DNA from: Copranaerobaculum intestinale | Lineage (GTDB): Bacteria > Bacillota_I > Bacilli_A > Erysipelotrichales > Erysipelotrichaceae | Reading direction: 5' to 3' | Length of the DNA: 32,000 bases | Assembly (NCBI RefSeq): GCF_009831105.1 | Contig: NZ_WUUQ01000001.1 | Span: 600,001-632,000 of the forward strand | Shown: one piece after another, positions 5,018 to 28,470 of the stretch | Layout: the number at the start of each line of letters is the position of its first letter | Numbering within the stretch: the stretch's first letter is position 1 | Position numbers and translations under genes: made by a program | Notes under the pieces: generated by a model | Told to the model about the DNA's origin: nothing | Database searches by the model: none | What the model saw: the letters and a program-made list of their open reading frames with translations, nothing else

Positions 5018-5794
5018 TTATCCTAATCTCTTTTTAATCTTTCTTTTTAGTTTGAAAAAGAAACTCGTTGAATATTGCTCGTTTTTCACTAATAGTTCAT
5101 AGGTTTCCATAACATTGATTGTATATACAAAACCCAACATTCCAACAGCAAGACCGAAAAATGCAAAGGAATGATATTCTGTCCATGAAATATAGCCTTT
5201 CACAGTAAATAGAAAGAAAATTAGTCCTGCTATAAAGAGAACAGTACAAGGAACAGCAACTATTACATATTTTTTCTTTTTTGAAGTGTATTCGCTTTTC
5301 AATTCTTTTAGATATTCATAATCAAGTAGTAAAGGTTCTTGCCTTAAAATGTTGTATTCTTGTTTTTCATAAAAAATTGCTACGACAAAAAATATAATTC
5401 CTGCCACAAAGCAAAATGCCATACCTAAATAACGCCAAGTCATATTATCTAAAAACAAGGTATATGGTATTCCAGCAAAAATGCAAAGCATAACCCCTAA
5501 AGCAAGATAAAGTCCTAATTTTTTCTGATTAGCGATAAACCCTACCGACATTTCCTTGCTTACATAATATCCTCGTTCTTCACTATTCTTTACATTCTTT
5601 TCGTCTTTCAAAAGATAATCCGTAGATACTTCAAAAATGTTTGATAATTGTAAAAGCTTTTCTGTTTCTGGAAACCCTTGATTGTTTTCCCATTTACTAA
5701 TTGCCTGCCTAGTAGTGCCTATTTGTTCAGCTAGTGCTTCTTGCGATATTCCTTTTTCTTTTCTTAACTTGAAGATTTTTTCTCCTAAACTCAT
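5018..5794 (-). CDS. Membrane-tethered XRE-family HTH regulator (N-terminal HTH_3, about 4 TM helices)
   Basis: 258 aa. The HTH is [37 protein letters not shown], followed by four long hydrophobic segments. GGAGG RBS. There is no counterpart in the canonical Tn916 backbone. Confidence 0.85.
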
Positions 5795-5875
5795 TGTGTG
5801 ATACCTCCTATGATTTGATGAATAAATTTTATCAAGCCATAATGTTATATTCTATATTTTTTGAAATGCACATTA

Positions 5876-5909
5876 GCAACTTCAAGTTGCAACCTTGTAT
5901 AATATACAA
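5876..5909. promoter_or_regulatory. Two adjacent perfect palindromes (candidate operators) upstream of the XRE-TM gene
   Basis: GCAACTT-C-AAGTTGC lies at 5876-5890 and TTGTATA-A-TATACAA at 5895-5909. The second contains a TATAAT hexamer. Both lie 80-115 nt upstream of the start at 5794. Confidence 0.55.
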
Positions 5910-5997
5910 AATTCATAGATTTTTCTGGTAAGTACAGCGTTTTATGTAATACAACATTCAAATTATAACATTCGCATATCAGTACCACAATAAAATT

Positions 5998-6219
5998 TTA
6001 TGCACCGATAATCTTATTGAACAGCTCTAACAATACATCTTTCACACCGCCAGCATTGAATACCAAACCGACAGCAATCAAGGCAACTACCAAGAAGCCG
6101 ATAAGTTTGGAAAACTCACGCTTGAACCCTAAGTAGATACCGATAACCACAATCGCCATAAGCACTAAGCTCTGTGCGTTACTTAAAAACCATTGATACA
6201 AATTTTGTCCGAAATTCAT
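5998..6219 (-). CDS. Small integral membrane protein (73 aa, 2 TM), at the Tn916 orf19 position
   Basis: MNFGQNLYQWFLSNAQSLVLMAIVVIGIYLGFKREFSKLIGFLVVALIAVGLVF has two clear TM helices. It lies just downstream of the relaxase gene. Confidence 0.7.
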   Translation of the reverse strand: MNFGQNLYQWFLSNAQSLVLMAIVVIGIYLGFKREFSKLIGFLVVALIAVGLVFNAGGVKDVLLELFNKIIGA

Positions 6220-14100: not shown

Positions 14101-14161
14101 CAGTAACGATAGTTGCAAGAGCTAAGAAGCCCGTACACAATCGTTTCAATGTCTTTTTCAT
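11117..14161 (-). CDS. ICE-encoded sortase-anchored adhesin. It has an N-terminal thioester-type domain, Cna-B/SpaA-like folds, two VaFE/ester-bond type repeats and an SPKTG sorting signal.
   Basis: - Signal peptide: MKKTLKRLCTGFLALATIVTALPTTPVHA.
- Thioester-type motifs: AYCIDI Cys motif plus EQCVVW (TQxA[IV]W-like).
- Cna-B-like modules: repeated L.ETKAPxGY-like motifs (IKELSAPAGY, IEETKAPNGY, VESEAPDGY).
- Anchor: C-terminal SPKTGD, a TM helix, then KRRKMKKS.
- Start: the ATG at 14161 has a GGAG RBS. The track's alternative ATG at 14182 overlaps that RBS. Confidence 0.9.
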   Translation of the reverse strand: MKKTLKRLCTGFLALATIVTALPTTPVHAESKQYWTESAERVGIIEKVMNDGSIGSTFNEGMMKVEGKTAYCIDINTDFRNGYKTRADASSRMNANQISDVALSLEYVKQYGEAHKELNYKQVYLLEQCVVWQRLSVHLGWQCDNVRASYDEIPKATQDEVFSGARTFVKENKGRYECGGYIYSGEGQELGQFWAKLNVGNAKLKKTSSNASITDGNGNYSIAGATYGVFTDKDCTKQLATLTTDENGNTDVAEVKAGTVYIKELSAPAGYKVDKTVYSLKIEAGKTATLNVSDTPKVTDTLIELFKIDMETKKDNPQGNASLAGAEFTWKYYAGFYNKDNLPAEATRTWVTKTIAETDSYGTTHYITKLADAYKVSGDSFYMQDGKAVLPLGTLTIEETKAPNGYLLEGAYMQAGDKSEQIKGLYVTQITEDDDLAVLSGSNQFSVSDKVIRGGVKIQKRDLETGDMKPQGSATLKDTAFDIISLNDNSVLVEGKLYKKNEVVKTIRTDIEGVASTSADLLPYGKFRIVESEAPDGYLTDGAKPIDFTITENGKIVDLTDKAHSIYNQIKRGDIEGVKIGAGTHKRLADVPFRITSKTTGESHIVVTDNNGQFSTSADWASHKHNTNAGKTSEDGVWFGTSEPDDSKGALPYDTYVIEELRSESNKGFELIPPFEIVVSRNNLLIDLGTLTDEYEKEISIHTTATSKDGEKTILAGKEITIVDTVKLDGLTKGTKYQLKGWQMLKEENAELIIDGKRAENDYTFVADEEEMKVEIAYTFNASALGGKNLVTFEELYDLSNPDEPVKVAEHKDIEDDGQTVLITERIIKIHTTATNKDGNKELEAGKNVTIIDTVTLEGLEVGTQYKLVGWQMLKEENAELLINGKCVENDYTFTADSETMKVEVAFTFDATSLDGKQLVTFEELYDLSNPDEPKKVTEHKDIEDKGQTITFKEKPEEPEKPETPQIPEKPSRPSDSPKTGDSTNVMAFLVMLLASAGGLAGTYLYKRRKMKKS
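11306..12061 (-). repeat. Tandem duplication inside the adhesin gene (units of 123 and 129 codons)
   Basis: Unit 1 runs 11675-12061 and unit 2 runs 11306-11674. Each begins IHTTAT(S/N)KDG and contains GWQMLKEENAEL, LVTFEELYDLSNPDEP and EHKDIED(D/K)GQT. Confidence 0.9.
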
Positions 14162-14235
14162 AAATTTTAATACTCCTTTCATTTTTGGTATAAAAATAGA
14201 CGCTCATTTCTGAACGTCTATAACATACGAGTATC

Positions 14236-14264
14236 TTGATTTCTAGTGATAAATGATTTATAGT
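14236..14264 (+). promoter_or_regulatory. Putative sigma-70 promoter pointing out of the ICE toward the tRNA fragment
   Basis: TTGATT (14236-14241), a 17-nt spacer, then TATAGT (14259-14264). No ORF follows it. Confidence 0.4.
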
Positions 14265-14461
14265 TTGTTTGTAATGTTTTCTGATAAATTAAAGCTTTAA
14301 ATTAGCCTTTGTTGCTAACAACCTGCTAACACTCTACGGTGTATGAGGGTACACCAGAGAGTATCAACAATTAAACATAACAAGCACTTATGCTTTAATT
14401 TACGGCATTAAACGCTCCCAAGAGGATAATCGAACTTCTAGCTACCACGGTTCGCAGAGAA

Positions 14462-14506
14462 CTCCTAAGCGGTAGGTCGGGTGTTCGAATCACCTCGGGA
14501 ACGCCA
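14462..14506 (+). other. Orphan 3' half of tRNA-Arg(CCU), anticodon loop to CCA. Putative att direct repeat at the ICE end.
   Basis: The segment reads CTCCTAA, GCGGT, AGGTC, GGGTG-TTCGAAT-CACCT, CGGGAAC, G, CCA. No complementary 5' acceptor strand (GTTCCCG), D arm or 5' anticodon stem lies upstream. Confidence 0.6.
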
Positions 14507-14513
14507 AAAACTC

Positions 14514-14555
14514 CGCCGGAAAACCCAGTAAAATCAAGGGTTTCCGGCGTTTTTT
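14514..14555 (+). terminator. Rho-independent terminator directly after the tRNA fragment
   Basis: CGCCGGAAAACCC (14514-14526) pairs with GGGTTTCCGGCG (14538-14549) with one bulged A, followed by TTTTTT. Confidence 0.8.
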
Positions 14556-14594
14556 CATTTTTACGGAAAAAGTGAAAAATCGTAAAATTCACAG

Positions 14595-14761
14595 ATTTTC
14601 ATTAGCAAAATCTCCGTCAGCTAATGGAAATTAGGACGAATGTCGTCCGCCTTTCAGGTGAACGACTTGCTAATAAAAATTAGCAGGATTTTCGCTATTT
14701 TGCTAATGAAAATGCCCTCTCTGCTAATGGCAGAAAAATTCGAGCAAAATTCCTGCTAATG
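14595..14761. repeat. Dense array of TGCTAATG-type motifs (iteron-like protein-binding array)
   Basis: - Plus-strand copies: 14619-14627, 14668-14675, 14701-14708, 14722-14729, 14754-14761.
- Minus-strand copies: 14600-14607, 14679-14686.
- The 17-mer ATTTTGCTAATGAAAAT lies at 14697-14713, with its exact reverse complement at 14595-14611.
- The palindrome TGCTAAT-AAAA-ATTAGCA lies at 14668-14685. Confidence 0.8.
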
Positions 14762-14876
14762 AATAAGGCGTTCGTTACCCTGTTAATTCGTTCATTTAGG
14801 GGTGGTCAAGCGACAATCGCACACTACTTCTATGCCATTTCTTATTATATAATTGCGGTAACAGGAGGTGGTTGTT

Positions 14877-15056
14877 TTGAAAGAACAAAAATATCATTTA
14901 TACCTTTCCAAGGACGAATACAGCGAAGTGCTGCAATCACTTATCCGTTTGAAGAACAGCCTGATAGCACAAGGCAGATACACGGACGCAGCAGATGATA
15001 TTCTTTGCAAGGTGCTTTCAGCCAAGAAAAGAAAGTTCAAAATCAAATATATCTGA
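14877..15056 (+). CDS. Small transposon-associated protein, TnpW-like (59 aa from a TTG start)
   Basis: AGGAGG at 14863-14868 lies 8 nt before the TTG at 14877. The product is MKEQKYHLYLSKDEYSEVLQSLIRLKNSLIAQGRYTDAADDILCKVLSAKKRKFKIKYI. The TnpW assignment comes from my memory of similar small ORFs in clostridial transposons and is not verified. Confidence 0.55.
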   Translation: MKEQKYHLYLSKDEYSEVLQSLIRLKNSLIAQGRYTDAADDILCKVLSAKKRKFKIKYI

Positions 15057-15064
15057 ACACGAAT

Positions 15065-15096
15065 AAAGACCGCCTACACTTTTGTAAGCGGTCTTT
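15065..15096. terminator. Bidirectional terminator between convergent tnpW-like and ant(6) genes
   Basis: AAAGACCGC (15065-15073) pairs with GCGGTCTTT (15088-15096), a 9-bp stem flanked by A/T runs. Confidence 0.7.
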
Positions 15097-15131
15097 GCTA
15101 ATTTAGAGTAAGTTAGACAAATATGAATTTG

Positions 15132-16013
15132 TCAATACCTATTACCATAAAGATATTTATTTGAAATTCTCTTTTGTGTTTCCAAATATTTTGTAACGTT
15201 TTCATCATAATCAGGATAATTATAACCAAGTGAATCTGCCACTTTTTTAGATATTTTTTTGAACAAACATAGACACAAATCAAACGATTTCCACATTTCT
15301 TCATACGAACTCATTGAATATGTATTTAGTAAGTTATCCCACAATTCTTTTGAAATATGCTTATCTAAAAATTTATAGTTTTTACCCAAACTGAAATTAA
15401 ATCCTTTTTCAGTACCGACATACCAACTAATCATCCTAAGAAGCTCATGACGTAATACTTCATTCATATGGTCTATTGCAAATAGTATTTCACCACGAAG
15501 TAAGCCCTTGGATACATATGTTGCAACATTCCAAAATTCGTTACAACAGTCATCAAACTTTCTTTCTGTTGGACACTTAATGTAATAATCTTCATCTGTG
15601 GGAACTATTTCTGTTTTAATCATATTATCTTTATCTAACATGATTTTTACAAGTTTATCGCGAGTAAGATACTCCTCAAGCATTGAAACAGGTAACAAAG
15701 TTAAATCAATCTTTACACCATCATCAAAAAGCATTATATAAGAAAATCCTTTTTCTTCTGGAGGAAATAATTCCATATCTTCAGGTTTTTGCATCATAAT
15801 TCTGTTACCAAAAACACTAAGCCAGTCATCGCTTTTCAAAAATTCTCCCATATCTATAACAAAAAAAGTAATATCATAATCTTGAAGATTGTCTTTTGGT
15901 ATATTAACATTAGTGCGAGACCCCTCAAGAGTTACAATTCTAATTCTCTCATCTTGAAAAGCAAAATTCAAAACTAAATCGTATATTTCTTTTTCAGTCC
16001 TCATTTCATTCAC
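15132..16013 (-). CDS. ant(6): Aminoglycoside 6-nucleotidyltransferase ANT(6)-I family (streptomycin resistance; aadE/aadK-like)
   Basis: 293 aa. Long stretches match my memory of ANT(6)-Ia: DERIRIVTLEGSR, DYDITFFV, MMQKPEDMELFPPEEKGFSYIMLFDD, KIDLTLLP, DDCCNEFWNV, EILFAIDH and RHELLRMISW. The gene is visibly more AT-rich than its flanks. Confidence 0.93.
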   Translation of the reverse strand: MNEMRTEKEIYDLVLNFAFQDERIRIVTLEGSRTNVNIPKDNLQDYDITFFVIDMGEFLKSDDWLSVFGNRIMMQKPEDMELFPPEEKGFSYIMLFDDGVKIDLTLLPVSMLEEYLTRDKLVKIMLDKDNMIKTEIVPTDEDYYIKCPTERKFDDCCNEFWNVATYVSKGLLRGEILFAIDHMNEVLRHELLRMISWYVGTEKGFNFSLGKNYKFLDKHISKELWDNLLNTYSMSSYEEMWKSFDLCLCLFKKISKKVADSLGYNYPDYDENVTKYLETQKRISNKYLYGNRY

Positions 16014-16057
16014 CTCAATAAAATTATATCACAAAAAAAGATTGATTCTAACTGTTC

Positions 16058-16825
16058 TTATAATTTGATAACCGCATCAAGGCAGAGCGTAAGTGCATAT
16101 TCGTATGCATTACCGCCCCAGTTTCTTTCGTCGTATTTGTCAACATCTGCAAGACTGTCTGCGGTATAAAGTATCATACCCCAGGTTGCCCCTCTGAAAT
16201 CAGCACAGGCCGCCAGAGCAGAACATTCCATTTCTACAACTGCACAGCCTTCACTTTTGCGATAAGCCACCTTTTCTTTGGTTTCACGGAAAAATCCATC
16301 CGTTGACCAGGTTATAACCTCCTGATATTTCATACTATGCTCAAGAATGGTTTCTTCAATTGCTTTTCTTGCCTTCTCGCTGATTTCCACAAATCGAGAA
16401 GGGGGCGCATAGTGATAAGATGTTCCCTCATCACGCAGAGCCTTGTTTGGTACGAGGAATGTACTTTCGGGGAACTTTTCCAGAGCACCGCAACTACCTG
16501 CCGAGATTACCTCTCTTACACCATAACCAATCAGCCAATCAAGTATCTGTGTGGCTGCTGCCGCACCAACGGGTGCTTGACAAAGCACAATGTCCTCACC
16601 CTTGTATTTGGTGATGTAAATGGGATAATGCTTCGTTGCACTCTCAAAAGTGGATACCTGTTTGGTATCACTTTTACTGGCATATTCATCTATGTAAGCA
16701 CCAAGAAATGCGAACACACATTTCTTGGGTAAGTTCAAACCAAGATTTTCATGAGTGGGATTAAGAACTGCTGTCTGCTCTGTATCAAACTCCAAAATCG
16801 GTATTTCGTTTTTAATAATAGCCAT
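16058..16825 (-). CDS. Nucleoside phosphorylase, PNP_UDP_1 family (uridine/purine nucleoside phosphorylase-like)
   Basis: 255 aa. It has APVGAAAATQILDWLIGYGV, ISAGSCG and the VVEMECSAL motif, comparable to YEMES in E. coli Udp. GGAGAG RBS. It ends 44 nt upstream of ant(6) on the same strand. Confidence 0.85.
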   Translation of the reverse strand: MAIIKNEIPILEFDTEQTAVLNPTHENLGLNLPKKCVFAFLGAYIDEYASKSDTKQVSTFESATKHYPIYITKYKGEDIVLCQAPVGAAAATQILDWLIGYGVREVISAGSCGALEKFPESTFLVPNKALRDEGTSYHYAPPSRFVEISEKARKAIEETILEHSMKYQEVITWSTDGFFRETKEKVAYRKSEGCAVVEMECSALAACADFRGATWGMILYTADSLADVDKYDERNWGGNAYEYALTLCLDAVIKL

Positions 16826-16857
16826 ACTATCTCTCCGTCAAATTCATATTTACGAAA

Positions 16858-27555: not shown

Positions 27556-27641
27556 GCAGAAGTGGTGGAACGGCAGACACGCTGTCTTCAGGCGGCAGTG
27601 CGAGCGATCGCGTGAGAGTTCAAATCTCTTCTTCTGCACCA
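27556..27641 (+). tRNA. tRNA-Leu(CAG), type II, CCA encoded; integration target of the adjacent islet
   Basis: Acceptor GCAGAAG/CTTCTGC. Anticodon arm CTGTC-TTCAGGC-GGCAG, with CAG at positions 34-36. T arm GAGAG-TTCAAAT-CTCTT. Length 86 nt. Confidence 0.92.
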
Positions 27642-27683
27642 TTTGTTAAATAAGCCCTATTCAAAGGGCTTTTTTAATGTTTG
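27625..27683 (+). repeat. attL-type direct repeat (last 17 nt of tRNA-Leu plus 42 nt including its terminator)
   Basis: TCTCTTCTTCTGCACCATTTGTTAAATAAGCCCTATTCAAAGGGCTTTTTTAATGTTTG matches 30241-30299 at 56 of 59 positions. Confidence 0.9.
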
Positions 27684-27740
27684 GTTATAATTTAGAACAA
27701 TTTTGGAACATTTTTTGGTAATATGATAATTGATCGTCAA

Positions 27741-28470
27741 TTAGTATAATAATTTGTTTCTCATTTTATTTAAATAAATGTGCATATATTTTAAAATCAT
27801 TTCTACGGTGTCTCCCACGCGTTGAGCAACGGCGAGTAATTTATACCATTTTTGATTAAATACGAAATGTGATTATGTCTAAGGCCGTGAGGGCTTAATT
27901 TTGTAATGCCCGCTTTCTCCGCCTAACCTTTCATCGTACGATCAACTGTTGAGTAGGGGAGTGGCTTATTAATATCAAAAACAAATGAATCTACTGTGAA
28001 GCCGTCAACTACCATAATCTGTTCGTTCCATTGTGTTAACATATCTGCTAGTATTTTGGGTATGGAAATCGTTCGTATACTTCTTTTTGATTTCGGTGCA
28101 GTTATTTTATACTTTAAACCTTTTTTCTGTCCTGCTTGCTTAATTTATTTGTAATTGTTTTAGTTACTTTAAGAGTTTTCTTATTGAAATCTATATCATT
28201 CCAGTTTAATGTAAACGCTTCACCGCGACGCAATCCAGTAAAATAAAATAGAGAATATAATGCCTTATATTGAAAATCATCCGCTAACTTTATGAATTTA
28301 AAATATTCATCAAGTGTCCAACATTTCATCTTTATTTGTTGATCATCAAAGGGTTTAATGGAAACTAATTTATCAACTATTGCGCAAACATTTATTCCAG
28401 CATCACGATTGATCAGGTAAGAACTGCCCTGCTCAGATGAGAGTAGGAGTACCATACAGTTGACAGACAT
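27741..28470 (-). pseudogene. Tyrosine recombinase (phage integrase family) pseudogene: N-terminally truncated, frameshifted, with an in-frame stop
   Basis: - The open part (28114-28470) contains box I, FYFTGLRRGEAF.
- After an A6 run near 28116 the frame shifts. My translation continues SIRTISIPKILADMLTQW...STVDRTMKG, then a stop (27923-27925), then AEKAGITKLSPHGLRHNHISYLI (box II HxLRH).
- A further shift is needed to reach the C-terminal segment (either of two remaining frames plausibly matches the integrase C-terminus).
- The roughly 170-aa N-terminal arm/core-binding part is missing. Confidence 0.75.

What the first reader, a model, noticed from the sequence alone, without database searches (positions are those of the whole stretch)
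14595..14761. Helically phased array of TGCTAATG motifs just outside the proposed ICE end and upstream of the TnpW-like ORF
**Density.** At least seven copies of (T/A)GCTAAT(G/A) on both strands lie within 167 bp of ORF-poor DNA. An 8-mer should occur about once by chance in this window counting both strands.

**Internal structure.**
- The 17-mer ATTTTGCTAATGAAAAT lies at 14697-14713, with its exact reverse complement at 14595-14611.
- The palindrome TGCTAAT-AAAA-ATTAGCA lies at 14668-14685.
- Plus-strand copies start at 14668, 14701, 14722 and 14754. The spacings are 33, 21 and 32 bp, about 3, 2 and 3 helical turns.

**Related sites elsewhere.**
- TGCTAAC occurs twice, 11 bp apart, inside the ICE terminus (14313-14319 and 14324-14330).
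- TGCTAATT lies at 15096-15103.
- One CATTAGCA at 5871-5878 abuts the operator palindrome of the XRE-TM cassette.

**Interpretation.** This looks like a cooperative binding platform for an unidentified DNA-binding protein. Possibilities are recombinase or RDF arm sites, iterons, a centromere-like site, or a repressor array. I do not recognise it as any described consensus.
Basis: seen in the sequence. Interest (0 to 1): 0.7.

Follow-up and report, generated by a model that had tools for sequence, protein, structure and literature searches.

The report
Integrase arm-site array at an ICE end
The cluster of TGCTAAT motifs is real and conserved, and is most likely the set of accessory ("arm-type") binding sites that a widespread gut-Clostridia conjugative element uses to assemble its integrase next to a tRNA-Arg attachment site; this is a classical kind of feature in a so far uncharacterised element.

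Summary
Seven (T)GCTAAT copies lie in 14595-14761; 2000 shuffles gave at most four.

The array sits 130 bp outside the Tn916/Tcp-like ICE, whose end is at about 14465. It lies inside a 660-bp module (14462-15121) that is 100% identical in many Clostridia. That module is the left end of a ~50-kb ICE that integrates into the anticodon loop of tRNA-Arg(CCT), core CTCCTAAG, and carries a spare tRNA-Arg. In this window the Tn916-like ICE has inserted into that spare tRNA, and the large ICE is only a remnant with no cognate integrase.

Evidence for recombination-arm sites:
- In 80 kb of Monoglobus, TGCTAA clusters occur only at the two ICE ends.
- Four integrase-proximal arms carry a GCTAA pair at about -148/-137 from the core. 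One of them is the otherwise unrelated Tn916-like arm.
- In diverged arrays the hexamers are 100% conserved against 55% for spacers, and the spacing 11/22/21/32 is kept.
- Sister elements at guaA or a lysS-like gene end carry other motifs (TTGCAACA, TTTACGACAA). TTGCAACA lies on both arms.
- The neighbouring 59-aa protein does not co-vary with the motif.
- The 39-aa ORF across the array shows no codon bias.

Whether the integrase or an excisionase (RDF) is the binder is unresolved. This is a new member of a known kind, of moderate interest.

The parts
14183..14465 (.). Terminal arm of the Tn916/Tcp-like ICE. It carries ATTAGC at 14301-14306 and a GCTAAC pair at 14314-14319 and 14325-14330, i.e. 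-160, -148 and -137 from the core.
   Evidence: The arm is identical in 10 other genomic contexts up to ...AGAGAACTCC. The GCTAA pair sits at the same distance from the core as in three arms of the large ICE family, although the arm is otherwise unrelated at 28-34% ungapped identity.
14462..14469 (+). Crossover core CTCCTAAG, the anticodon loop of tRNA-Arg(CCT).
   Evidence: Identity to all related loci starts exactly here. The same 8-mer ends the species-specific native 5' halves in 9 of the 10 loci L003-L012.
14462..14506 (+). 3' half of the ICE-borne spare tRNA-Arg(CCT). The 5' half is absent from the window.
   Evidence: The complete 77-nt tRNA is called at the homologous position in L001 and L003-L012. 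ARAGORN finds none here.
14513..14555 (+). Terminator hairpin after the tRNA, with the conserved loop GTAAAATCAAGG (14528-14539).
   Evidence: Read directly from the sequence. The same loop motif lies at about -57 in the integrase-proximal arms.
14595..14761 (.). The array: seven (T)GCTAAT sites at 14600-14607(-), 14619-14626(+), 14668-14675(+), 14678-14685(-), 14701-14708(+), 14722-14729(+) and 14754-14761(+). These are candidate P'-arm arm-type sites.
   Evidence: establish the copies and their significance. In distant variants the hexamers are 100% conserved against 55.5% for spacers. The spacing is conserved.
14634..14648 (+). Small hairpin GGACGA-ATG-TCGTCC between sites 2 and 3.
   Evidence: It is conserved in close variants and in L002, and absent in L017, L018 and L049. 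Its role is unknown.
14877..15056 (+). 59-aa gene with a TTG start and an AGGAGG ribosome-binding site 8 nt upstream. It is the first gene at the ICE left end.
   Evidence: The exact protein occurs in 4253 collection blocks. It has no Pfam or NCBIfam family. The AlphaFold2 model is beta-alpha-alpha-beta with pLDDT 81 and has no significant PDB match.
15065..15096 (.). Bidirectional terminator-like hairpin after the small gene.
15116..15130 (+). Second recombination hot spot, GACAAA-nnn-GAATTT, where the conserved module ends and variable cargo begins.
   Evidence: All loci diverge from each other right after this point. In L003 a 7-kb IME with its own 432-aa integrase sits here.
15132..16851 (-). 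Cargo: ant(6) streptomycin adenylyltransferase (15132-16013) and a PNP_UDP_1 protein (16058-16825).
   Evidence: Pfam hits. The stretch is 99.9% identical to the cargo of L008, but the ICE backbone that follows in L008 is missing here.

Best explanation
**What it is.** The array is the P'-arm set of arm-type (accessory) binding sites of a site-specific recombination module. That module belongs to a family of roughly 50-kb conjugative elements of gut Clostridia.

**How the element works.**
- Its tyrosine integrase is 487 aa in the Monoglobus copy.
- It crosses over at CTCCTAAG in the anticodon loop of tRNA-Arg(CCT).
- The element's left end carries, in order: a spare tRNA-Arg, a terminator hairpin, the (T)GCTAAT array, and a 59-aa gene.
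- Its right end carries the integrase, four HTH_17 excisionase-type genes, and three further GCTAA sites at fixed distances from the core.

**Inferred mechanism.**
- The integrase's N-terminal arm-binding domain binds these sites.
- The catalytic domains bind the core.
- The phased sites and hairpins fold the arms into an intasome, and this sets the direction of integration or excision.
- The HTH_17 proteins may share or flank the sites.

**State in this window.**
- The module is a remnant without its integrase.
- A Tn916/Tcp-like ICE, whose own arm carries the same motif pair, has inserted into the spare tRNA 130 bp to the left.

**Shown versus inferred.**
- Shown: location, conservation, presence on both arms, and co-variation with the attachment site.
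- Inferred: which protein binds, and the intasome role.
For: 1. **Location.** The segment 14462-15121 is 100% identical to the left end of an ICE in Monoglobus and in at least 10 other genomes. It lies downstream of native tRNA-Arg 5' halves that end in CTCCTAAG.
2. **Clusters at both ICE ends only.** In 80 kb spanning the whole Monoglobus ICE, clusters of 3 or more TGCTAA per 200 bp occur only at the left array and in the arm next to the integrase.
3. **Fixed positions in the other arm.** Integrase-proximal arms of Monoglobus, L002 and L071, and the unrelated Tn916-like arm of the window, each carry a GCTAA pair 11 bp apart at -148/-137 (within 2 bp) from the core.
4. **Selective conservation.** Among 23 array variants the motif hexamers are 100% conserved in the distant lineages against 55.5% for spacers. 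None of 109 circular shifts reaches this difference. The order and spacing, + - + + + at 11/22/21/32-34, are kept.
5. **Association with the core.**
   - Across the 80 loci that encode relatives of the small protein, the array is present wherever the tRNA-Arg core lies upstream. The only exceptions are L055 with a single copy, and L071, whose upstream sequence is cut before the core.
   - It is absent (no GCTAAT copy at all) wherever the core is absent.
6. **Other attachment sites carry other motifs.**
   - Elements behind the guaA 3' end carry TTGCAACA repeats.
   - Elements behind a lysS-like 3' end carry TTTACGACAA repeats.
   - In the guaA-type mini-element of L069, TTGCAAC in the forward orientation occurs only in the two arms.
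7. **Arm-binding domain.** Integrase residues 10-53 match Pfam Arm-DNA-bind_4 over the full model, at E 0.0031.
8. **Fit with known systems.** Heterobivalent tyrosine integrases with long attP sites holding integrase and accessory-protein sites are established (PMC4111918; references in PMC5812530).
Against: - **Distance.** With the crossover at the element's outer core, the array lies 256-422 bp away, with a functional tRNA gene in between. That is farther than most described arm sites. It is 133-299 bp from the core inside the spare tRNA.
- **Sub-threshold domain match.** The Arm-DNA-bind_4 match scores 17.5 bits, below Pfam's cut-off of 22.3.
- **RDF not excluded.** The same pattern would be expected if one of the four HTH_17 proteins were the binder.
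- **Possible transcriptional role.** The array lies about 70-120 bp upstream of the small gene's start, so a transcriptional role is possible.
- **Dispensable in some copies.** Some variants have lost copies (L055, L057, L080).
- **Integrases of other classes not recovered.** The guaA and lysS-like class integrases were not obtained, so co-variation is shown with the attachment site, not with the protein.
- **No binding data exist.**
Confidence: 0.58

Rival explanations
1. The sites are bound by the element's excisionase-type HTH_17 proteins (RDFs) rather than by the integrase. One of these proteins has three HTH_17 repeats. On this reading the array controls the direction of recombination, and perhaps transcription at the ICE end.
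For: - Four HTH_17 genes lie directly upstream of the integrase in the Monoglobus ICE. The 233-aa one has three matched stretches, and the 68-aa one matches the TIGR01764 excisionase domain.
- RDFs oligomerise on phased repeats (PMC11963761, abstract).
- All the comparative evidence (att-linked, on both arms, spacing kept) fits this reading as well as it fits the integrase.
Against: - In the best-studied systems Xis sites sit on one arm, between the core and the arm-type sites (PMC4111918). Here the motif is on both arms.
- The Tn916-like ICE carries the same motif pair, but its RDF is unknown.
- No protein was tested.
Confidence: 0.2
2. The array is an operator or activator array for a transcription factor that controls the promoter of the 59-aa gene and the left-end operon. 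The factor could be the 59-aa protein itself.
For: - The array ends 116 bp before the start codon, and that distance is similar in all lineages at 109-123 bp.
- The palindrome TGCTAAT-N4-ATTAGCA looks like a site for a dimer.
- An unrelated phage contig has GCTAA palindromes in its immunity region.
Against: - The small protein does not co-vary with the motif. L049 and L020 proteins are 85% identical, yet one carries GCTAA repeats and the other TTGCAACA repeats.
- A 78%-identical homologue (L073) has no array at all.
- The small protein's model has no DNA-binding fold match.
- The motif also sits at fixed positions in the far arm next to the integrase, and in an ICE with a different regulatory gene set.
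Confidence: 0.12
3. The array is a centromere-like (parS) site for the ICE's ParA/ParB pair, or a set of replication iterons.
For: - ParA and ParB genes lie 1.1-3.6 kb downstream of the small gene in most ICE copies.
- Arrays of short repeats in both orientations are typical of type Ib centromeres (own knowledge).
Against: - The array follows the attachment-site class, not the partition genes. It is present in L003, L005, L009, L010 and this window, where no ParAB follows.
- It has partner sites in the arm next to the integrase.
- ParB_N/HTH_ParB proteins usually recognise 16-bp palindromes (own knowledge).
Confidence: 0.05
4. The repeats reflect a small coding sequence. A 39-aa ORF at 14640-14759 reads three of the motifs as Leu-Leu-Ile/Met. 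Alternatively they reflect a structured small RNA.
For: - Gene callers annotate this ORF in four of the ten assemblies examined (L003, L005, L010, L011).
- Spacings of 33 and 21 bp are multiples of three.
- A weak promoter-like site lies at 14560-14588, and a weak hairpin followed by a T-run lies at 14666-14687.
Against: - Variable columns fall 11/11/10 on codon positions 1/2/3.
- The ORF is truncated or absent in L017, L018, L021, L022, L035, L064 and L088.
- Two sites lie upstream of the ORF's start codon and one is read on the opposite strand; the last plus-strand copy is out of frame.
- No Rfam family matches.
Confidence: 0.03

Closest known systems
Arm-type sites of lambda Int (P1, P2, P'1-3) and of mycobacteriophage L5 Int (P1-P7)
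   Same: - Short repeats unlike the core lie on both sides of the crossover, in direct and inverted orientation, with helical spacing.
- The integrase has an extra N-terminal domain.
- attP is long and holds further sites and bends (PMC4111918; L5 from own knowledge).
   Different: - The motif (T)GCTAA(T) is new.
- There are seven copies on one arm.
- The array lies up to 420 bp from the outer core, with a whole tRNA gene in between.
- The element is an ICE of Clostridia, not a phage.
- No binding has been shown.
Tn916 Int N-terminal domain binding the DR-2 repeats near both transposon ends; also the Tn1549 integrase
   Same: - A Firmicutes conjugative element carries integrase-arm repeats about 100-150 bp inside its ends (Lu and Churchward 1994, cited in PMC5812530).
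- The catalytic region of the 487-aa integrase has weak sequence similarity to the solved chains 6EN0/6EMY/6EMZ, named only 'Int protein' in the table (E 2.6e-5). Identifying these entries as the Tn1549 integrase rests on my own knowledge.
   Different: - Here the target is a specific tRNA anticodon loop, not AT-rich variable sites.
- The repeat sequence differs.
- The N-terminal domain matches Arm-DNA-bind_4 rather than the Tn916 Integrase_DNA family.
CTnDOT arm-type sites (R1, R2, R2', L1, L2) with Xis2c/Xis2d
   Same: An ICE with several arm-type sites on both attL and attR plus small accessory DNA-binding proteins (DiChiara et al. 2007, cited in PMC5812530).
   Different: It belongs to a different phylum and integrase lineage, has a different motif, and has neither a tRNA target nor a spare tRNA.
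Genetic elements that integrate in the anticodon loop of tRNA genes and restore the gene
   Same: The crossover is in the anticodon loop. L049, L009 and L055 show the classical layout, with the native 5' half joined directly to the rest of the tRNA and followed by the element arm.
   Different: Most copies do not repair the split gene. They carry a complete spare tRNA-Arg(CCT) with its own promoter, and that spare gene becomes a target for further insertions.

Membership tests
Arm-type site arrays of heterobivalent tyrosine integrases | A short repeated motif, different from the core, within a few hundred bp of the crossover site | tested here: met
   There are seven (T)GCTAAT copies at +133 to +299 from the core CTCCTAAG at 14462, and at +256 to +422 from the element's outer core in other loci.
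Arm-type site arrays of heterobivalent tyrosine integrases | The same motif on both arms of attP | tested here: met
   The only two TGCTAA clusters in 80 kb lie at the two ICE ends. GCTAA sites sit at about -148, -137 and -108 in the Monoglobus, L002 and L071 arms. The guaA-class motif TTGCAAC is confined to both arms of the L069 mini-element.
Arm-type site arrays of heterobivalent tyrosine integrases | The integrase carries an N-terminal arm-binding domain | tested here: inconclusive
   Residues 10-53 of the 487-aa integrase match Pfam Arm-DNA-bind_4 over positions 1-47 of 47, at E 0.0031 and 17.5 bits, below the 22.3 cut-off.
Arm-type site arrays of heterobivalent tyrosine integrases | The motif changes when integrase specificity changes | tested here: met
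   The tRNA-Arg core goes with GCTAA, the guaA end with TTGCAACA, and the lysS-like end with TTTACGACAA. This is shown at the level of the attachment site. The integrases of the other two classes were not recovered.
Arm-type site arrays of heterobivalent tyrosine integrases | Integrase binds the sites and they are needed for recombination | not testable with these tools
   This needs EMSA or footprinting and mini-ICE recombination assays.
Arm-type site arrays of heterobivalent tyrosine integrases | A cognate integrase is encoded by the same element copy | tested here: not met
   In this window the ICE backbone stops at 16851, and no full integrase gene is present. The only trace is a 118-aa fragment at 28114-28470 beside tRNA-Leu. 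The copy here is therefore an orphan.
RDF / excisionase (HTH_17) binding sites | RDF genes are present in the element and the sites are phased repeats in an att arm | tested here: inconclusive
   Four HTH_17 genes lie next to the integrase in the Monoglobus ICE. The pattern of sites cannot tell an RDF from the integrase.
Partition centromere (parS or omega-type repeat arrays) | The array travels with its ParA/ParB genes | tested here: not met
   The array is present without ParAB in L003, L005, L009, L010 and the window, and it follows the attachment class instead.
Autoregulatory operator of the adjacent small protein | The motif co-varies with the protein, and the protein has a DNA-binding fold | tested here: not met
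   Proteins that are 85% identical carry different motifs. A 78%-identical homologue has no array. The model has no significant fold match.
Protein-coding repeat (39-aa ORF) | Third-position bias and conservation of the reading frame | tested here: not met
   Variable columns fall 11/11/10 by codon position, and the ORF is lost in several lineages.

The most novel reading that the evidence does not exclude
The module of spare tRNA-Arg plus flanking arm-site array acts as a portable landing pad. By carrying its own copy of the target next to integrase-binding sites, the ICE recruits further elements of the same integrase specificity. These elements then nest or stack and travel together, here a Tn916/Tcp-like ICE and elsewhere repeated insertions that leave two or three tandem 5' halves. 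On this reading the array would also modulate recombination of elements other than its own.
Probability: 0.2. Interest if true: 0.65.

Novelty: new member of a known kind. Interest (0 to 1): 0.4.

Why it matters
- **Prevalence.** The element family is very common in human and animal gut Clostridia. Its 59-aa marker protein is listed in 4253 blocks of the assembly collection.
- **Cargo.** It carries resistance genes: ant(6) in this window, and tet(O/32/O) and tet(40) in Monoglobus.
- **Practical use.** Knowing its attachment core and its arm-site motif gives a way to delimit these elements in genomes. It also helps to recognise remnants and stacked elements, and to design excision, integration or binding experiments.
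- **Transferable rule.** The three-way match between attachment site and repeat motif offers a rule for finding arm sites in uncharacterised ICEs from sequence alone.

Tried and rejected
- **Rfam.** The gathering-threshold scan of the whole window found nothing, and the E-value scan of 14150-15150 gave only chance-level hits.
- **Phage collection.** There was one diverged hit, L002, which proved useful as an independent arm.
- **Plasmid collection, Tn916-like arm.** Matches stop at about 14203-14220, so no annotated record holds that arm.
- **Far end and integrase of the Tn916-like ICE.**
  - 10 kb beyond orf16 was not enough.
- **Integrase scan of viral contigs.** It gave only near-identical copies.
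- **Pattern scan for the palindrome plus the next copy in viral contigs.** There was one unrelated phage immunity region, L109, with no tRNA-Arg core.
- **PDB sequence search of the integrase N-terminus.** Only chance-level hits to streptococcal proteases.
- **RHH idea for the 59-aa protein.** The model is beta-alpha-alpha-beta with no significant fold match.
- **'TnpW-like' label.** No family or source name supports it. A direct comparison with Tn4451 TnpW was not possible.
- **Literature.** Full-text searches found no description of this element family, its tRNA-Arg attachment site or its arm repeats; the motif string itself was not searched for.

Full report
**1. The observation**

The region 14595-14761 holds six matches to (T/A)GCTAAT(G/A), at 14600(-), 14619, 14668, 14701, 14722 and 14754. 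A seventh copy forms the right arm of the palindrome TGCTAAT-AAAA-ATTAGCA at 14668-14685.

TGCTAATG occurs five times in the window against 1.48 expected, and four of these are in the array. Seven GCTAAT/ATTAGC fall within 167 bp, while 2000 block shuffles gave clusters of at most four. The conserved unit turns out to be (T)GCTAA(T); the last G of the 8-mer is not kept in distant relatives.

**2. Where it lies**

The left 14.2 kb of the window is the orf16-to-orf24 part of a Tn916/Tcp-type ICE on the minus strand. Its genes include AAA_10, TcpE, ArdA, Rep_trans, FtsK, DUF961 and a 1021-aa TQ/SpaA adhesin. Comparison with ten other copies of this ICE, each in a different genomic context, places its end at ...AGAGAACTCC, about 14465.

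- **A shared module.** From 14462 to 15121 the window is 100% identical to DNA of Monoglobus pectinilyticus and to loci from many other Clostridia.
- **Content of the module.** In those loci the stretch begins inside a complete tRNA-Arg(CCT). It continues with a terminator hairpin, the array, a 59-aa gene and a second terminator.
- **What follows it.** Then come variable minus-strand cargo genes and an ICE backbone. In Monoglobus the backbone includes ParA, ParB, a SpaA pilin, TnpV, SNF2, a relaxase, VirD4 and VirB4, tet genes, four HTH_17 genes and a 487-aa tyrosine integrase, about 50 kb in all.
- **What precedes it.** In 9 of the 10 loci fetched with the exact protein (L003-L012), a species-specific native tRNA-Arg 5' half ends in CTCCTAAG upstream of the complete tRNA and is joined there to the element.
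- **What this means.** The element integrates in the anticodon loop, splits the host gene and brings a spare tRNA-Arg with its own promoter.
- **Repeated use of the site.** L008 and L011 show two or three stacked 5' halves, so insertions at this site recur.
- **State in this window.** The 5' half of the spare tRNA is missing, and the Tn916-like arm is joined at the same CTCCTAAG. That ICE has therefore inserted into the spare tRNA.
- **A remnant.** To the right, identity with another copy (L008) runs only through the ant(6) and PNP cargo to 16851. No ICE backbone follows and no cognate integrase is present. The array here belongs to a remnant.

**3. What the array is**

Six lines of comparative evidence point to recombination-arm sites.

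- **Clusters at both ICE ends only.** In 80 kb covering the whole Monoglobus ICE, clusters of three or more TGCTAA per 200 bp occur only at the left array and in the arm between the integrase gene and the core.
- **Fixed positions in the integrase-proximal arm.**
  - That arm carries GCTAAT and GCTAAA 11 bp apart at -149/-138 and an inverted copy at -108.
  - L002 and L071 show the same layout.
  - The Tn916-like arm of the window has GCTAAC at -148/-137, although it is otherwise unrelated at 28-34% ungapped identity.
- **Selective conservation.**
  - Twenty-three distinct array variants were aligned.
  - In the distant lineages (L017, L018, L021, L049, L088) the five hexamers between 14660 and 14769 are conserved in 30 of 30 columns, against 55.5% for spacer columns.
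  - None of 109 circular shifts of the motif mask reaches that difference.
- Order and spacing, + - + + + at 11, 22, 21 and 32-34 bp, are kept while the spacer sequences change.
- **Association with the core.**
  - Among the 80 loci from different species that encode relatives of the 59-aa protein, the array is present wherever the tRNA-Arg core lies upstream.
  - The exceptions are L055, which has one copy, and L071, whose upstream sequence is cut before the core.
  - Every locus without the core has no GCTAAT copy at all.
- **Other attachment sites, other motifs.**
  - Relatives of the small gene that sit behind other attachment sites have other repeats in the same place.
  - TTGCAACA follows the 3' end of guaA (L019, L020, L036, L069, L070).
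  - TTTACGACAA follows a lysS-like 3' end (L041, L065).
  - In the guaA-type mini-element of L069, TTGCAAC in the forward orientation occurs in the 8-kb locus only in the left arm (three copies) and in the right arm (a pair at -122/-110 from the second core).
- **An arm-binding domain.** Residues 10-53 of the integrase match Pfam Arm-DNA-bind_4 over its full length, though below threshold at E 0.0031.

Together these are the expected marks of arm-type sites in a long attP bound by a heterobivalent tyrosine integrase (background: PMC4111918; Tn916 and CTnDOT references in PMC5812530).

**4. Rivals**

- **Operator of the 59-aa protein.** This is disfavoured. The L049 and L020 proteins are 85% identical yet sit behind GCTAA and TTGCAACA arrays respectively. 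A 78%-identical homologue (L073) has no array. The AlphaFold2 model (pLDDT 81, beta-alpha-alpha-beta) has no significant match in the PDB.
- **Centromere for ParAB.** This is disfavoured because the array occurs without ParAB and follows the attachment class.
- **The 39-aa ORF some gene callers place at 14640-14759.** It is not coding. Variable columns fall 11/11/10 on the three codon positions, and the ORF is truncated or lost in several lineages.
- **An RNA.** No RNA family matches.
- **RDF rather than integrase.** I cannot separate binding by the integrase from binding by one of the four HTH_17 excisionase-type proteins encoded next to it. One of those has three HTH_17 repeats.

**5. Caveats**

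- With the crossover at the outer core, the array is 256-422 bp from it, with the spare tRNA gene in between. This is far for arm sites.
- Relative to the core inside the spare tRNA the distance is 133-299 bp. That arrangement parallels the guaA class, where core, a similar hairpin and the repeats lie within 130 bp.
- Some variants have lost copies (L055, L057, L080).
- The integrases of the guaA and lysS-like classes and of the Tn916-like ICE were not recovered.

**6. Comparison with known systems, and novelty**

The thing works like the arm-type sites of lambda, L5, Tn916 and CTnDOT. It meets the sequence-level criteria I could test: a motif unlike the core, presence on both arms, and a change with attachment specificity. 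It is inconclusive on the arm-binding domain and untested on binding.

The motif, the element family's attachment site and the spare-tRNA layout were not found in the literature I could search. I rate it a new member of a known kind, of moderate interest. The less ordinary aspect is that an ICE-borne spare tRNA next to the array serves as a target for other elements, as in this window. Whether the array plays a part in that is open.

Noticed in passing
window 14462-14506; L003-L012 9430-9630; L001 14840-15045: The large ICE splits the host tRNA-Arg(CCT) at the anticodon loop and carries a complete spare tRNA-Arg(CCT) with its own TTGACA/TAAAAT-type promoter. It does not simply restore the 3' part. 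L008 and L011 show two or three stacked 5' halves from repeated insertions. L009, L049 and L055 lack the duplication.
   Followed up: partly
window 15116-15131; L003 10240-17470: A second sharp junction, GACAAA-nnn-GAATTT, lies right after the small gene's terminator. Every locus carries different minus-strand cargo whose stop codon abuts it (ant(6), DUF3784, Aminoglyc_resit, flavodoxin, SnoaL, DUF2441). In L003 a 7-kb mobilisable element with its own Xis and 432-aa integrase sits there. It looks like a second attachment site or cargo hot spot.
   Followed up: partly
window 14528-14539; L013 about 34880; L002 about 200; L071 about 1590; L010 about 11080: The 12-mer GTAAAATCAAGG in a hairpin loop recurs about 57 bp before the core in the integrase-proximal arms and about 67 bp after the core in the tRNA terminator. 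A similar hairpin follows the guaA-type core. It may be a further protein site or a bend, or it may only be a duplicated terminator.
   Followed up: no
window 14183-14470; L097-L106 about 5700-6000: The Tn916/Tcp-like ICE with this exact adhesin sits in ten different genomic contexts. The sequence after its end ...ACTCC is TAAG in 5 of the 10, TAAT or TAAA in 2, and CTAA, CTAT or CCAG in the other 3. It therefore prefers CTCCTAAG-like sites rather than tRNA-Arg alone.
   Followed up: partly
window 14877-15056; L016, L024, L073 and others: The 59-aa protein belongs to a large unannotated family, with 799 clusters at 50% identity reaching E of 0.001 or better. Members are either the first gene at ICE left ends or lie directly after a DUF4379 zinc-ribbon gene. 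The predicted fold is beta-alpha-alpha-beta with no known fold match.
   Followed up: partly
L004, L007 and L012 at 10935; L001 at 16350; L008 at 13464; L006 at 13117; L011 at 11279: A single inverted TGCTAAT lies exactly 153 bp upstream of the ParA start in every ICE copy examined. It is one copy only and may be chance within a conserved backbone.
   Followed up: no
window 27556-28470: A 118-aa Phage_integrase fragment (28114-28470, minus strand) lies just downstream of tRNA-Leu(CAG) (27556-27641). It is probably the remnant of yet another integrated element at a tRNA gene.
   Followed up: no
L109 5440-5560: An unrelated phage contig has a dense set of GCTAA/TTAGC palindromes between two genes. 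The upstream gene looks by eye like an S24-type repressor, though no domain search was run. The region has the layout of an immunity operator and shows that this short motif is also used elsewhere.
   Followed up: no
L069 4732-5775; L010 10600-11140: There are miniature deletion derivatives of the ICEs, flanked by both cores. L010 keeps only the left module, one cargo gene and the right arm (1.7 kb). L069 has a ParA N-terminus fused to an integrase C-terminus. Such non-autonomous relics may be mobilisable in trans.
   Followed up: partly
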